Assembly: GCA_045047115.1 (NCBI GenBank) | Contig: JASFYR010000009.1 | Location: 1-64,000, forward strand | Reading direction: 5' to 3' | DNA: 64,000 nucleotides | Source of the DNA: Sulfurospirillum sp. | GTDB taxonomy: Bacteria; Campylobacterota; Campylobacteria; Campylobacterales; Sulfurospirillaceae | In this document: piece by piece, positions 21,001 to 33,000 of the stretch | Position numbering within the stretch: the first letter of the stretch is position 1 | How the letters are laid out: each line of letters starts with the position of its first letter | Program-made: the position numbers

Positions 21001-24000
21001 GCTGCAGGAATCATTATTTTTACTTTTATATTTCATTTTAATGCCAAGCCTTCTCAGGGTCCCGGACTTGTTTTTATCTCTCTTCCTGCTCTGTTTTCGC
21101 AGATGGGCTTGCTTGGAAATATCATATCCATATCATTTTTTACGGCACTTGCATTTGCGGGAATTACATCGGCAGTTTCAATAGTAGAGCCGACTGCTCT
21201 GTATCTGATCAATAGATTCAATATGACAAGAACTAAAGCGTTATTGAGTATATCTGCAATCACATATATATTTGGTGTTATGGCCATATTTTCAAATGTT
21301 AAAGTTTATGCTCACTACTTTACATATTTTGGAAAAGGGTACTTTGATATACTTGATTATCTAAGTTCTGCCATATTGTTGCCGTTAGGAGGTATGGTTA
21401 TAGCATTTTTCGTGGGATTTGTTATGCCAAAGAGCAGAGTTCATGCTGTTTTATCAAAATATATGAGCGAAACTGTATTTAATTTATGGTATTTTTCAGT
21501 TAAGTATGTTGCTACTATCGCAGTAGCGATAGTGATGATCAATAAACTTTTCTTTTAAAACTACTTATCAGAGTCAAATAGCATTTTGGCTCTGATTTTT
21601 TTATATCTTTTTGAAGTCATTTTTTTTATCTGTTTTTTGGTCAGTTTTGAGCCGTTTATGATATTGTTTGGTAGTTGCATATCTAAGACTTCATAGCCTG
21701 TTTTTTTTGGGTTGATTATCAAAGGATTGTTGTGGCAACTCTCGCAGGATTTTGCTCTCTTGCCTGTGGTGTGAGGAGAATAGGGGAGCCATACTTCTAT
21801 CTTTCTGCCGTCTATCTTGTTTATATCATCTAAAATCATTTTACCATTTTTATCTCTGTAGCTTATGCGATACTGAAAGAGAGGGCGCACTATCATAATC
21901 CTGCCATCCTTTGAATTTGCCAGATTAAAATGTTCCCATCTTTTATATCTGTAGCCACTGTACCAGATACCGTCTTTAAACTTGTGCGTTATCCAATCAG
22001 GCATCTTTGGTGGAATTTTTCTTTTGCTTTTTAGTGCTTTGTGTAAAAAATTTGTCAAATATCCATCTTCTTGCAGTGTCAAGTTTCCCCACTTTTTATA
22101 ATCGCTTGTGTCATCTCTAAAAACAGAGAGTTCATAGGAGTTGTTGTTCCAAGTAGAGTGACAAGTGGAGCAGGCTAATTTTGTGTGATAAGAGGTGTGG
22201 TTTTTTTTACTCAATTTTTTATGACAATCCCTGCAACTTGCTTTTTTTATGCCAAGCATATCATCTTTTTTATGACAATCAATACAAGTCATGCCAAGTC
22301 GATAGTGTATATCGCTACTTAGATGATGAAAATCTATACCGTATTTTTTGGGTGGATATCTGCCGTCTTTTGTGAGCGGTGCTCGATAACTTTTGTCATA
22401 ATCTTTTGGGAAAAGTCCTAAATAATCTCCGCCTACAAACTCTTTGTTGTGACAGCTAAGACACTTTTTCATATTTATTTTACTTTTTTGGCACTTGCCT
22501 TGTTTTTGGTGAGGAGTATGACAGGCTAAACAATCTTTGCCTCTATTCATGCCTTTTTCACCGCTACCTTTGTTGTTTAGATGACACTTTAAACACTTTC
22601 TTCTTAAAAAATCATCCACTAAGTCTTTTGTATTTTTTATCTTGGTTTTTGGTAGTGGAAGAGTTTGGATTGTTACATTGCTATCTTCTATACCCCACGC
22701 AATTCTTGTGATATTTATGGCTTTTTTAAGAGTGTAGTGCAAACTTTTTTTGCAGTTCTTAGTAACTTTGGGATGGCATTTTATACAATCATTTGCAGAT
22801 AAGAAAAGTGCTATGAATAGCAAGAGAGCTATTTTAGGCATGATGTTTTTCCGCTATAAAAGAGTTTTTTTGATTTTTTAAAATCAACATATATCTTATC
22901 ACTATATTTGTTATGGCAAATGATACACTTATATGCTCCTATTATTTTGTTCAGTTCACCTGAATTAAAGCTTCTAGCCTCTTTTCTTGAAGTGCTTTGA
23001 AATTGTTTGCCTTTTGGTGATACAAAGGCATCTATCGGGTAGGAAAAAGGCATACCACTTTTTGTTGAATCATAAATCGGAGTAAATGATATGTTGCCAT
23101 CTTTTATATCCAAATTTCCTCGCCCAAGTCCCAAGGAGGCAGGATTAAAGTGACAGTCGACACAAGTTCTTGAAGTTTTTTGAGTAGTATGCGGATCCCA
23201 TCCTGCCATTGCTAATGAGTGAAATTGTTTAACTTTTTTATCTTTAAATACAGTGCCAATAACTTGACATCCAGGAGCAAAAGGCATAATTTTTTTATTG
23301 TAACCAATTCCTAGAGATGGCGATTCAAATCTTAAAAAACTTCTTAACTCTTGCCATTGTCCTTTGGTAACTTTCTTTTTTACCCAATCAAACTGCTTTC
23401 CATTTTGAAAATATATCTCATGACAACCATAACAGCTTGGTGCCCATGAGCTATGACAAGCTGAACAATCAAGCCTTTTGTGAATTGCTAGAGTATGATA
23501 TGGTTTGTCACTCATTTTGGGCAAATTAAACTTTTTACCATCAATTTTTCTATAAAAATCAGTTTTATTTCCATCTTTTTGTACATTGTATAGCGGCGAG
23601 TTGAATTTTTTGGTATAAGCTATGATTTTTGGCTCAGGTACTTTTTCATTTGTATCCGCTAGCGTAACAGCAAGGGTATTTGCCTTTTCAAAGTGGGGTT
23701 TATGACAGTCTTTGCACTTGATATCTTCGGCCTCTTCCATGTGATAGTGCTTTTTACCGTCTCCCATCACACCTTTTTCGGTATGGCAATCTATACAACT
23801 CATGTTTGCACTCTTATGGTGTATGTCATCAGGAAGATTATAATAAAATCTTCTGCCGTCACTCATCTTGTGTGTGAAATCTCCATGTTTGTAAGGCGTG
23901 CCGTAACCCGCACTCTCAAAAATACCCTCATAAGAGAGTCCTATGCGGTTTGAGCGATTATGGCATTTGAGGCAGTTTTTTGTGGGAATTGCCGTAGTGA

Positions 24001-30000: not shown

Positions 30001-33000
30001 AGAGTAGCCAATGATTAAAATACCCCAAGGTACTTCTCTACTGATCCCGTAAGATTCCTCTTGGCCATAGATGAAGACATGATACATGCCATATAAACTA
30101 ATAGCCGCTATAAAAAAAGACAAAAATAGCCACACGCTAGCGGGCTTTTTTTGCAGAATAGTTGCGTCTGTACTCATAATTTTTCCTTAAAAGAGTTAAT
30201 TATTTTTATTGAAATATTTAAAGCATAACTGAAATATTTTACATCTGTAGCCAAATTCAAAGAATTTGCAAAATCATTTGTCCAAGTTAAAAACTTGGCA
30301 AACTCTTTTATCTCTTCTATTTTATTGTCTTCAGCTAAAATTGCTATAAATGAAATCATTGAAGATATATTGTCAGCTGGCTGTTTTACTTTTTCAGCAT
30401 CAAATTTATATCCACACCTAATATAAAAATCATGAATTTTTGACAGAGTTCTTCCTGACATTCTTCCATCAATCCACCAAGATGCATAAGGAACACATCT
30501 TAGTTTTGTAGAACTCATCGAAAAAACTCTTAAATACTCAGCGCATAAGTCATCAAAAGCAACTTCTTGTGAATTACACTTGGTATTTGTCAAATCTTCT
30601 AATTTTTTTATATTGTTTTTATACTCACTGTTTGGATAGTCTAAAATATCCGCACACAAAAAGAGTGCGGATATTTTATCATTAAGTGATAGCTCCAATT
30701 TACTTATCACCCTTGATAAGTCTTCTTTTTGGCCATCTTGTGTAATCAGCCATACTTCCGCTGTACATTCTTGATTTGTCACCCATGCCAAGAATATATC
30801 TTGCTGTAAACCAGGTACCAGTTGCTAAGTGACCGGTGTTACAATAAGAGATGATTGGTTTGTTTGTATTGAGTCCAGCCTTTTTAAATTTTTTAGCAAT
30901 AAATGCTTTGCTTCCTAGATAGTAAACTCCATCTTTTTTCACAGTTAAAATTTTTGGACTAAGTGGTATTGCACCCTTTAGATGACCTTCGTGTAATCTT
31001 CTTGGGTCTTTTGCCGTTCCGTACCAGTGCTTATTTTTTCCATTTGCATCCAGTGTTTGGGCGTCGCCTGTCCAAACAGCTTCATCAACATTTTCACCCG
31101 TAGCCATGATAGCTTGGTTAAATTTTCTGCCTTTGAAGCTAAAGTTTCCTCTAGTAACTTTTGGTCTTATATTGTTAACTGCTCCACCAGCTTTTTTCCA
31201 GCCAGCCAGTCCACCATTTAAGATAGCTACATTTGAAAAACCGTAGTATTCACATGTGAAATCAGCAAGCGTGGAAAACAAGAAGTCTCCTGGCTTAGCA
31301 CCGCCACTATAAAGAACTATAGCACTGTCATTATTTACACCACTTTTTCTCATTGTTCTCTTAATTGTAAGAGGAGCGGCTACATAACCGGGAATTGGTT
31401 TTTTAGTGATTCTGCTATAGTATCTACCCTCTCTAAAATCTCTGCTTTTCCAGGCAACTGCACCCTTTATGTGTTTTGCCTTATAGCCTTTTTTCCTCAC
31501 ATCTATAATTACAAGGTTTTTATCACCCATGTGTGATTTTAACCATGCAGCATCAACAATGTGATTTGCAGGGACAGTTAGAGCCATTGCTGAAACTGAT
31601 ATAAGAGCTGATATAATCAACCCACTTGAAATTTTCTTCATATACTCTCCTTTAAAATTTGTTGTAAAATCATTCTATAATAAAAAAGGGAGTAAAAAGG
31701 GAGTAAATAGAAAATGATGAATATATTTTAAAAAATAATAGTAAAAATTGCCCCAGTGTGTAGATTTTTCACATCTATTTTTCCATTATTGTTTTTTTCG
31801 ATGATCATTTTGGTCATATATAGACCTATGCCTGTACCGGAATTTGCATATTTTGTTGTAAAATACGGTTCAAAAATTTTATCGATTGGATTAGTGGTTA
31901 TACCACCGGCATTGTCTTGTATAGTTACTGTTTTTTTTGAGTTTTTTATAAAAGCTCTGATTATGATTTCAGGATTTTTTATCCCTCTTTCGATGCAGAC
32001 ATCTTTTGCATTGTTTATAATGTTTACAAAAGCCTGTACGATTTCGTTTGGGAATCCGATTAAGTTGAAATTTTCCCCCATATTGATTGTTAGTTTGATT
32101 TTATTTTTATCTAATGTTGCACTTAAGAGTTGTTCTGTTAGAGATATGACCTCTTTGATTGTATACTCCTCTTTTGGCTTCCCGGATGAAAAAAAGTTTC
32201 TAAAATCATCAATAGTATTTGACATAAAGGAAATCTGTGTATTTGCTTCGTTAATTTTTTCTTCTAGTTTGTTTCCTGTCAATTTACCTCTGTTTGAGTT
32301 TAATTCGATATTTACGAGTATGATAGAAAGTTGCGCTAGAGGTTGTTTCCATTGGTGGGCTATGTTGCCAATCATCTCGCCCATAGATGCTAGTTTGTTT
32401 TGGTTTAATAAAAGAAGATCTTGCCTGGCTTGAAGTTTTTGGTTCTTTTTATAGATAATGTATAGAAATATGTAAAAGATTATAAAAACAATCAAAGCTA
32501 TGGAAATCGTAATCAAAAAGTCCTTTATGTGTGTCGAAACTATGTGCGAGAGTGGAATCTTTAGTGAAATAATAGCTCTTAAATCTCCTGTTTTTTCGTA
32601 AAATCCTGCCTTGTCTCCATACATCTGTATCAACTCTTTTGGTGCAATATTCGGTGTGCTGTGACATTTCATGCATGATTTTTTATTTCTTTCGATTGGA
32701 ACAGCAACATAGAAGTAATTTTTACCGTTTTCTTTTAAGATTGTCGAAAATTCTTTAATTTTTTTTTTTCTAAATTTTTCCAAGATTCTTTTTTCAAAAT
32801 CATTTGCTCTATTTATTGGATTTCTAGGGTTTGTTGCTGCTAGTTTGAATTTGTAAGGGATTTTATTTTTTAATTTTTGTGAATTAGTATACATGTGGTG
32901 AATAGTGTTTACTATATATGTTGATGACATAATTCTTGAATCAAAGAAATCCTTATACAACTTTCCTTTCTTTTTAAGATTATAAATAACAGGTTTTTGG

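What a model noticed while it worked through the whole genome (the two positions that open the first line are those of the whole stretch)
21561..31641. Psr-like molybdoenzyme operon fused with a Rieske/cytochrome b pair and a 12-haem plus 8-haem cytochrome pair
One operon encodes rhodanese, NarJ-like chaperone, NrfD-type membrane subunit, a TAT-exported Mo-bisPGD subunit (32% to PsrA), 4-cluster FeS subunit, a Gly-Cys-ended small protein, a Rieske protein (129 aa, TAT signal), a short b6-like cytochrome b (267 aa, four His ligands, no PEWY, no subunit IV) and two multihaem cytochromes c (12 and 8 CxxCH). Boldest reading: a self-contained respiratory supercomplex in which a Rieske/cyt b quinol oxidase uses multihaem cytochromes in place of cytochrome c1 and wires the quinone pool to a periplasmic sulfur-compound reductase/oxidase or to an insoluble acceptor. 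New: a Rieske/cyt b-multihaem module in Campylobacterota (so far an anammox/Geobacter-type f [...]
Evidence so far: Gene order and motifs: calls 5,17,53. Mo subunit: nearest named relatives are only 'molybdopterin oxidoreductase' of Sulfurospirillum, Campylobacter, Hippea, Deferribacter, Flexistipes at 40-75% id; Swiss-Prot best PsrA 31.9%. 12-haem cytochrome full-length homologues in about 25 of 401 Campylobacterales genomes. Synteny: same genus G040 keeps the whole operon with Rieske/cyt b; G134 and G187 keep rhodanese-NrfD-Mo-FeS-GC protein-12-haem-8-haem without Rieske/cyt b; G394 and G384 have the haem pair alone beside SQR/YeeE or SorA. Rieske next to Fer4_11 in 16 of 1515 genomes of the order.
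(Added by a program. Inside this text positions count along the whole contig: contig position 1 is position 1 of the stretch shown here. "Call 12" and the like, gene names such as g00115 and contig names such as C1 are that model's own, and its searches are not shown. The text may have been shortened before it was handed on; [...] marks where a part breaks off. The agent that wrote the report below was given it as the finding of a first reader that could run no searches.)

Follow-up and report, generated by a model that had tools for sequence, protein, structure and literature searches.

The report
Sulfur-respiration operon with swapped enzyme
These ten genes look like a version of the gene cluster Geobacter uses to breathe elemental sulfur, with a molybdenum enzyme in place of Geobacter's selenium enzyme, which points to a shared electron-supply module behind two unrelated sulfur-reducing enzymes.

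Summary
The ten-gene operon is real, but it is not a chance fusion. Its Rieske, cytochrome b, 12-haem and 8-haem genes are distant homologues of ExtO/P(Q)/M/N of the Geobacter ext cluster, whose enzyme MccSep (ExtKL) is a proven polysulfide reductase with an unidentified electron donor. Here a Psr-clade molybdoenzyme fills that slot. In 81 Geobacterales genomes all 53 with ExtM carry MccSep (22), PsrA (30) or both (1); none of the 28 without ExtM carries either. The window's gene order recurs in the class of a Desulfurellales genome, and its Mo clade sits beside true ext genes in Deferribacteres, where the pattern is incomplete (14 of 33 ExtM genomes have neither enzyme). Correction: cytochrome b carries a fused subunit-IV-like part with SPWF at the PEWY position. 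Best reading (0.6): periplasmic polysulfide respiration, ExtMNOP serving the reductase. Substrate, direction and complex formation are untested; the Rieske signature predicts a high potential, which fits poorly with simple downhill flow to polysulfide. I found no paper on the swap; the scan's notes held only a MccSep finding. New variant of a known kind.

The parts
30700..31641 (-). Exported two-domain rhodanese (sulfurtransferase), in the place of ExtH
   Evidence: Pfam PF00581, two stretches; ExtH model 56 bits, cut-off 200; Cys267 kept in 13 of 13; N-terminal hydrophobic stretch
30174..30698 (-). NarJ/TorD-type maturation chaperone for the Mo subunit (about 174 aa)
   Evidence: PF02613; TorD and DmsD models below cut-off; orthologue length
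29029..30177 (-). NrfD-family membrane subunit, about 10 hydrophobic segments
   Evidence: PF03916; hydropathy count 10 against 8 for the PsrC of L123; His76 kept in 22 of 22, His194 in 20 of 22
26768..29029 (-). Mo-bisPGD catalytic subunit of the PsrA/PhsA/SrrA clade, in the MccSep slot
   Evidence: best PDB match PsrA 2vpw, Cys186 aligned with its Cys173; PhsA model 488.8 bits, cut-off 694; tree
26173..26766 (-). Four-cluster Fe-S subunit (PsrB-like), no signal of its own
   Evidence: PF13247; 16 Cys and no hydrophobic segment
25804..26163 (-). Small exported TPR-like protein with a flexible arm ending in Glu-Gly-Cys; probable sulfane-sulfur carrier (inferred)
   Evidence: EGC invariant in 31 of 31, at least 90% of 39; TPR look-alikes at 0.93, a lead only; ExtH and ExtJ also end in Gly-Cys
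25389..25778 (-). Rieske protein (ExtO-like) with the S-F signature
   Evidence: PF00355; CTHMGC and CPCHHSQF; 22% to the ExtO of L123
24583..25386 (-). Cytochrome b (ExtP-like) with fused, shortened subunit IV (ExtQ-like); SPWF at the Qo motif; no CxGG
22829..24586 (-). Membrane-anchored 12-haem cytochrome c (ExtM-like) with conserved extra Cys440 and Cys583
   Evidence: ExtM model 272.7 bits, cut-off 800; 29% over 581 columns to P0257, which passes the cut-off; Cys conservation
21561..22841 (-). 8-haem cytochrome c (ExtN-like; 10 haems in G022 and several others), paralogue of the 12-haem protein
   Evidence: ExtN model 79.7 bits, cut-off 200; 25% to the ExtN of L123
31728..33878 (-). Upstream two-component system; the sensor has a Tll0287 domain with one CxxCH; possible regulator (inferred)
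   Evidence: PF11845, PF00072; sensor gene kept upstream in G002, G003, G004, G006, G008, G009

Best explanation
An ext-type sulfur-respiration operon. Sulfane sulfur from polysulfide or S0 is caught in the periplasm by the rhodanese and the Gly-Cys-arm protein and handed to the Psr-clade Mo enzyme, which cleaves the S-S bond and releases sulfide. Electrons come from the (methyl)menaquinol pool, through the NrfD and Fe-S subunits and through the cytochrome b/Rieske unit and the 12- and 8-haem cytochromes, the same module that accompanies the soluble reductase MccSep in Geobacter. Shown: gene content, homology, co-occurrence. Inferred: substrate, direction, sulfur hand-over, and that ExtM/N pass electrons to the reductase. 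For the uphill step from menaquinol to polysulfide I favour low-potential electrons leaving the b haems, paid for by proton-motive force or by bifurcation (about 0.35 on its own).
For: Homology to ExtM/N/O/P. MccSep is a polysulfide reductase needed for S0 respiration, donor unidentified (PMC13510729). Geobacterales: 53 of 81 genomes have ExtM; 22 MccSep only, 30 PsrA only, 1 both, 0 neither; 0 of 28 ExtM-less genomes have either. In 40 of the 53 loci: 14 MccSep, 16 Psr, 10 neither, 0 both beside extM. The label needs 4 changes on the ExtM tree. L123 has rhodanese-psrABC-extMNOP-S with ExtM, ExtN and ExtS above cut-off; L082 has extI-extJ-like-Mo-FeS; L222 has extH-I-J-like, Mo, FeS, PsrC, extOPQS opposite extMN. 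6 of 6 Campylobacterota genomes with the Mo orthologue have the ExtM-like gene within about 8 kb. Rhodaneses, YeeE sulfur transporters and Gly-Cys arms recur. Named close relatives come from sulfur reducers: P0386/P0387 Hippea, P0401 Deferribacter desulfuricans, P0335 Sulfurospirillum sp. 1612 (PMC5317093, PMC6896113, PMC13209400).
Against: No experiment on any member of the window's clade was found. PsrA, PhsA and SrrA cannot be told apart by sequence (PMC12949373). In Deferribacteres 16 of 33 ExtM genomes lack the window-type Mo enzyme and 14 have no Psr match at E<=1e-120 and no MccSep. Several Deferribacteres with psr genes are listed as not reducing S0 (PMC6896113 Table 2). All 81 ext-type Rieske proteins have S-F or S-Y, read as about +260 mV or more (PMC4122944), too positive to relay electrons to polysulfide. 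The NrfD subunit could feed the Mo enzyme alone, and G062 and G108 keep the operon without the ext-type cytochrome b. This genome has three other Psr-like enzymes and a Sox system. 20 of 37 genomes in the class of G571 have no match to the Mo subunit.
Confidence: 0.6

Rival explanations
1. The chain runs oxidatively: the Mo enzyme oxidises sulfide to polysulfide and reduces menaquinone through NrfD; the Rieske/cytochrome b unit re-oxidises the quinol by a Q-cycle and the multihaems carry electrons to a high-potential acceptor such as oxygen or nitrate.
For: Every step is downhill and a high-potential Rieske fits. The genome has Sox genes and NapA above cut-off and a CcoP-like gene below it. 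Reverse action of extra Psr copies has been suggested for Epsilonproteobacteria (PMC6896113 passage).
Against: The slot's proven occupant, MccSep, works reductively in vivo. The named relatives are from sulfur reducers. The genome already has a PEWY-type bc1 complex.
Confidence: 0.15
2. A selenite or other oxyanion reductase (Srr-like, or thiosulfate/tetrathionate) rather than a polysulfide reductase.
For: srr operons are told from psr by extra genes srrE, srrD, srrF; that these are rhodaneses and a chaperone is recalled, and would match this operon. extI loss impairs selenite and tellurite reduction (PMC5877670); MccSep also reduces selenite. An octahaem tetrathionate-reductase-like gene lies beside psrA in 4 of 40 Geobacterales loci. 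A higher-potential acceptor would suit the Rieske signature.
Against: MccSep prefers polysulfide sevenfold and shows no activity with thiosulfate or tetrathionate. YeeE transporters and Gly-Cys arms point to sulfane sulfur. Two Ttr-like genes lie elsewhere in the genome.
Confidence: 0.13
3. The multihaem pair wires the quinone pool to an insoluble acceptor (metal oxide or solid sulfur) outside the cell.
For: A G. sulfurreducens strain left with only extHIJKL among five conduit clusters reduced Fe(III) oxide at 52% of wild type (PMC6148476 Table 1). The cluster was proposed as the Geobacter quinol-oxidation site (PMC2825233).
Against: No ExtI porin, ExtS or ExtJ found in this genome. Deleting extHIJKL left Fe(III) oxide reduction at 96%. 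ExtM tracks the sulfur reductases, and 28 of 81 Geobacterales genomes lack it.
Confidence: 0.06
4. Two unrelated modules that lie side by side by chance.
For: The two halves are split or turned in G001, G007 and G013 and lie apart in L085, L236 and L237; G151 has the haem pair without the Mo genes.
Against: The same order in the class of G571, the link in Deferribacteres and Geobacterales, and separate couplings in Chloroflexota, Calditrichaceae and Desulfosporosinus.
Confidence: 0.02

Closest known systems
Geobacter sulfurreducens extHIJKLMNOPQS cluster (GSU2940-2930), with MccSep = ExtKL
   Same: Rhodanese, small Gly-Cys-ended protein, 12-haem ExtM, ExtN, Rieske, b6-type cytochrome b and subunit IV around a sulfur reductase.
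   Different: MccSep replaced by a Psr-clade Mo enzyme with Fe-S, NrfD and chaperone; no ExtI, ExtJ or ExtS found; cytochrome b fused to subunit IV and without CxGG; ExtN with 8 haems; all proteins below the NCBIfam Ext cut-offs.
Polysulfide reductase PsrABC (Thermus thermophilus 2VPW; Wolinella succinogenes)
   Same: Cys-ligated Mo subunit, four-cluster subunit, NrfD-family anchor.
   Different: Anchor with about 10 rather than 8 segments; order nrfD-A-B; separate clade from the other Campylobacterota PsrA-like rows of the tree and from this genome's three other copies; extra ext module.
Respiratory selenite reductase Srr of Bacillus selenitireducens
   Same: PsrA-clade enzyme with extra genes in the operon (their identity as rhodaneses and chaperone is recalled).
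   Different: One rhodanese only, plus the Rieske/b/multihaem module; the primary paper was not held, so no direct comparison.
Anammox Rieske/cytochrome b complexes (Kuenenia) and the GPWF/APWY cytochrome b clades
   Same: Multihaem partner instead of c1; an S-F Rieske measured at +335 mV in Kuenenia, implying a very low b-haem potential (PMC12954380); GPWF is a listed Qo pattern (PMC4122944).
   Different: No NAD(P) oxidoreductase; partner is a periplasmic sulfur reductase.

Membership tests
Geobacter ext cluster | 12-haem ExtM and ExtN homologues side by side | tested here: met
   Full-length, haem motifs in register
Geobacter ext cluster | Scores above the NCBIfam cut-offs for ExtH, M, N, P | tested here: not met
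   56/200, 272.7/800, 79.7/200, 66.7/290
Geobacter ext cluster | Rieske, cytochrome b and subunit IV (ExtO, P, Q) | tested here: met
   Present, P and Q fused; the Q part rests on weak profile hits
Geobacter ext cluster | MccSep (ExtKL) | tested here: not met
   Best hit in the genome 47.6 bits, cut-off 250; the model rang in G475
Geobacter ext cluster | Porin ExtI, ExtJ, ExtS | tested here: not met
   No ExtI family hit; no tblastn hit with ExtI, ExtJ, ExtS queries; genome 100% complete by markers but in 41 contigs
PsrA/PhsA/SrrA clade | Periplasmic Mo-bisPGD subunit with Cys ligand and N-terminal Fe-S cluster | tested here: met
   Cys186 aligned with Cys173 of 2vpw, invariant in 51 of 51; Cys ligand per PMC7331816 Table 1
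Psr proper | PsrC anchor with eight helices and no cofactor | tested here: inconclusive
   Crude hydropathy gives 10 segments; two conserved His; no structure made
Psr proper | Polysulfide-reducing activity | not testable with these tools
   Needs an enzyme assay
Srr | srrE, srrD, srrF in the operon | tested here: inconclusive
   One rhodanese and one chaperone present; no Srr reference sequences in hand
Rieske/cytochrome b complex | Four His ligands for two b haems | tested here: met
   Spacing 14 and 15, invariant in 16 of 16
Rieske/cytochrome b complex | Qo motif | tested here: met
   SPWF (9) or GPWF (5) in 14 Campylobacterales loci, on the PEWY position; no acidic residue
Rieske/cytochrome b complex | Q-cycle activity | not testable with these tools
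   Needs biochemistry

The most novel reading that the evidence does not exclude
ExtMNOP(Q) is a widespread machine that lifts electrons from menaquinol to polysulfide potential. Its high-potential Rieske protein drives bifurcation (or proton-motive force drives the b haems), the low-potential electron leaves through a His/Cys-ligated haem chain in ExtM, and either of two unrelated catalysts, the selenium-haem enzyme MccSep or a molybdenum Psr, plugs into it. It would be the missing donor of MccSep and a Rieske/cytochrome b complex that exports its low-potential branch to the periplasm.
Probability: 0.2. Interest if true: 0.9.

Novelty: new variant of a known kind. Interest (0 to 1): 0.65.

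Why it matters
How sulfur reducers push electrons from menaquinol up to polysulfide is open, and the 2026 MccSep paper leaves the enzyme's donor unidentified. The near-perfect either-or between MccSep and PsrA among ExtM-bearing Geobacterales names ExtMNOPQ as the candidate and makes it testable by deletion in G. sulfurreducens. It also gives a likely function to a cluster flagged in 2010 as unusually conserved (PMC2825233), suggests that more than half of ExtM-bearing Geobacterales respire sulfur with molybdenum rather than selenium, and offers extM as a marker that separates this Psr clade from other copies in Campylobacterota.

Tried and rejected
Idea that cytochrome b (ExtP) is dispensable where PsrC exists: rejected; 10 of 10 genomes whose locus lacked it have it elsewhere at 60-88%; of 5 more tested, G062, G108, G151 and the draft G009 showed only a housekeeping-length cytochrome b and G577 had the ext type. 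Selenocysteine read-through of the Gly-Cys protein: the stop is TAA. Threshold artefact in the either-or: in 5 MccSep and 5 ExtM-less genomes the best PsrA match is at most 33% (E no better than 1.1e-72) against at least 41% (E 5.1e-150 or better) in the 31 Psr genomes. Fold of ExtM: model pLDDT 71 without haems; Foldseek found nothing at E<=0.001; VIA-align gave the octahaem cytochrome 1sp3 at Z 5.8, rmsd 5.6, 283 aligned, a lead only. Expression: no RNA holder listed. Promoter and terminator scans were at chance level. PMC12545173 held none of five terms. Look-ups in the scan's notes by place and by sequence returned nothing.

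
Full report
Observation. The ten genes are there, on the minus strand at 21561-31641, packed with gaps of -13 to +25 bases. 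Domain calls and the 12 and 8 CxxCH motifs hold. One statement needs correcting. The 267-aa cytochrome b is not a bare b6: after the fourth His it continues with a part that aligns with stand-alone ExtQ/subunit IV proteins. A profile of that part finds 8 PDB sequences at E<=10, all subunit IV or the C-terminal part of cytochrome b, with GPWF on PEWY in the alignments printed. Each hit is weak, and the window's piece alone matches no NCBIfam model. GPWF is one of six Qo patterns listed in PMC4122944. The haem ci motif CxGG is missing.

What the second half is. NCBIfam's best hits for the 12-haem, 8-haem and cytochrome b proteins are models of the Geobacter ext cluster, all below cut-off. The 12-haem protein aligns end to end with proteins that pass the ExtM cut-off, 29% over 581 columns. 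Against the Geobacteraceae locus L123 the identities are 28% (ExtM), 25% (ExtN), 22% (Rieske) and 23% (cytochrome b). The ext cluster is described as rhodanese, porin, small protein, ExtKL, 12-haem, 10-haem, Rieske, cytochrome b, membrane protein and ExtS (PMC5877670). ExtKL is MccSep, a periplasmic polysulfide reductase needed for growth on S0, fed by an unidentified donor (PMC13510729). Among the 150 representatives, 31 are 850-970 aa long, and 30 of them begin with a cytochrome b domain (Pfam agreed in 4 of 5 tested). So ExtM is the c-type partner of this cytochrome b.

What the first half is. The Mo subunit belongs to the PsrA/PhsA/SrrA clade: best PDB match 2vpw at E 5.9e-142, with Cys186 on its Cys173 and His159 and Arg345 on its His145 and Arg332 (the roles of the last two are recalled). 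Sequence cannot separate Psr, Phs and Srr (PMC12949373). On a FastTree of 121 Mo subunits the window groups with sequences from the classes of G571 and G424 (support 100); this group is sister to one holding the Geobacterales ext-linked PsrA (99), and lies apart from the other Campylobacterota rows and from this genome's three other Psr-like genes (long-branch warnings apply). 46 of these 69 rows have an ExtM-related gene in the locus, against 12 of the other 52.

Spread in Campylobacterota. The Mo orthologue is in 13 of 13 same-genus genomes, in G022 (another genus) and G034 (another family). Where contigs allow, Rieske, cytochrome b and the haem pair follow; G001 is rearranged and G007 and G013 have inserted genes. 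In 401 genomes of the phylum it was found in 6 (two candidates scored per genome), all with an ExtM-like gene within about 8 kb; G062 and G108 lack the ext-type Rieske and cytochrome b. In the class of G571, the genome behind the Desulfurellales record L083, 14 of 37 genomes have both Mo and ExtM-like genes, 3 Mo only, 4 ExtM only, 16 neither. L227-L230 repeat the window's order from chaperone to ExtN; L083, L122, L231 and L232 do so in part; L085, L236 and L237 have Mo and Fe-S genes standing apart (11 of the 17 Mo loci fetched).

The swap. L123 holds rhodanese, psrA, psrB, psrC and then true extM, extN, Rieske, extP and extS; L082 holds extI, an extJ-like gene, then Mo and Fe-S genes where extKL would be. 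I then searched 81 genomes of the order of G423, the genome behind L123. ExtM is in 53, MccSep in 23 (query confirmed), PsrA in 31. One genome has both, the union is exactly the 53, and none of the 28 without ExtM has either (13.5 with both expected if independent, but kin are not independent). The cut-off sits in a real gap in the 10 genomes checked. In 40 of the 53 loci, 14 have MccSep and 16 Psr upstream of extM, 10 neither, none both. On a quick ExtM tree of 41 of these genomes the label needs 4 changes, 2 to 3 forced by starred branches, so the exchange happened more than once.

Where it fails. In 65 genomes of the class of G424, the genome behind the Deferribacterales record L082, ExtM is in 33 and the window-type Mo enzyme in 18, 17 of them with ExtM. 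In 20 of the 33 loci it lies beside ext genes in 8; L225 and L226 also carry the Gly-Cys protein. But 16 ExtM genomes lack it, 14 of them have no Psr match at E<=1e-120, and MccSep was found in 0 of 65 (control). Several are drafts, and a third enzyme or decay of the cluster is possible. PMC6896113 lists several Deferribacteres with psr genes as not reducing S0.

Sulfur handling. The small protein has a signal peptide, a TPR-like body and an arm ending in Glu-Gly-Cys, invariant in 31 of 31 close relatives; one distant copy (L222) lacks the Cys. ExtH, ExtJ, some YeeE proteins and two PsrA proteins also end in Gly-Cys. I read these as carrier arms like that of SoxY (analogy; inferred). The rhodanese keeps Cys267 in 13 of 13. 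ExtM keeps an extra Cys in PGCQ in 19 of 19 window-type, 40 of 40 Geobacterales and 20 of 20 Deferribacteres proteins, with Met in 3 of 22 rows of A3, as expected of a haem ligand (inferred).

Mechanism. Most likely (0.6) the operon reduces polysulfide in the periplasm with electrons from the menaquinol pool. Menaquinones lie at -125 to -70 mV (PMC12949373) and polysulfide near -260 mV (recalled), so the step is uphill. The Rieske signature is S-F in 73 and S-Y in 8 of 81 ext-type proteins (a few genomes counted twice), against G-F in the housekeeping protein. S-F is read as about +260 mV, and one anammox S-F protein measured +335 mV, from which its authors infer a b haem as low as -475 mV (PMC12954380). 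The Rieske protein therefore cannot simply relay electrons to sulfur. Either the b haems deliver low-potential electrons to ExtM, by bifurcation or by proton-motive force as recalled for Salmonella PhsC, or the chain runs oxidatively. Bifurcation needs a high-potential sink; this genome has Nap and a CcoP-like gene, but growth on S0 alone offers none. This step is unresolved.

Novelty. The ext cluster, MccSep and Psr are each known. I found no paper describing psr genes in the ext cluster or the either-or with MccSep: searches. Seen: PMC13510729 parts 1-4 of 8, passages, and a three-term search of its one held supplement with no hit; passages of its preprint; PMC12949373 passages and section 3.6; passages only of PMC5877670, PMC2825233, PMC6148476, PMC7331816, PMC4122944, PMC5600118, PMC5317091, PMC13209400, PMC6896113, PMC5317093 and PMC12954380. 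Not seen: Wells 2019, Dibrova 2013, ten Brink 2013 and Inoue 2025. These, and the operon maps in the supplement of PMC5600118, which mentions large conserved operons of unknown function, may already show such gene arrangements. Verdict: new variant of a known kind, interest 0.65.

Noticed in passing
window 38008-40311 (-): A second 12-haem ExtM paralogue (767 aa, ExtM model 220 bits, also with PGCQ), flanked by thioredoxin-like genes at 36754-37928 and 40472-40957 and a second two-component pair; order kept in G003 and G009. Similar 780-810 aa proteins make up most of the 37 of 401 ExtM-family hits.
   Followed up: partly
L247 (G000:C9:157866-159324, outside the window): Split YeeE-type sulfur-transport genes, apparently in three short frames, followed by a 109-aa protein ending in Gly-Cys; similar sets lie beside the operon in G001, G011, G151, G593 and G602.
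   Followed up: partly
NCBIfam NF040968: The model named ExtO (iron-sulfur subunit) is 416 positions long and matches the ExtN multihaem, not the Rieske protein, of L123; it looks mislabelled.
   Followed up: no
L183, L195, L199, L200: A 7-CxxCH protein related to octahaem tetrathionate reductase (157 bits, cut-off 375) sits between rhodanese and psrA in 4 of 40 Geobacterales ext loci.
   Followed up: no
L208, L210, L211, L220: Deferribacteres with ExtM but neither known reductase have a formate-dehydrogenase-like operon and an unassigned 335-aa gene just upstream of the ext genes.
   Followed up: no
window 12797-18730 (-), with 7721-12790: A 1977-aa exported protein without Pfam hit, beside a fibronectin III protein and two further genes without hits; GC is low (23-30%) at 1-8000.
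   Followed up: no
L249 (G000:C18:42693-43246): Two small exported proteins ending in Gly-Cys follow a Ttr-like Mo gene.
   Followed up: no
L126: A Sulfurovaceae record carries the same operon in many short frames, probably sequencing errors.
   Followed up: no
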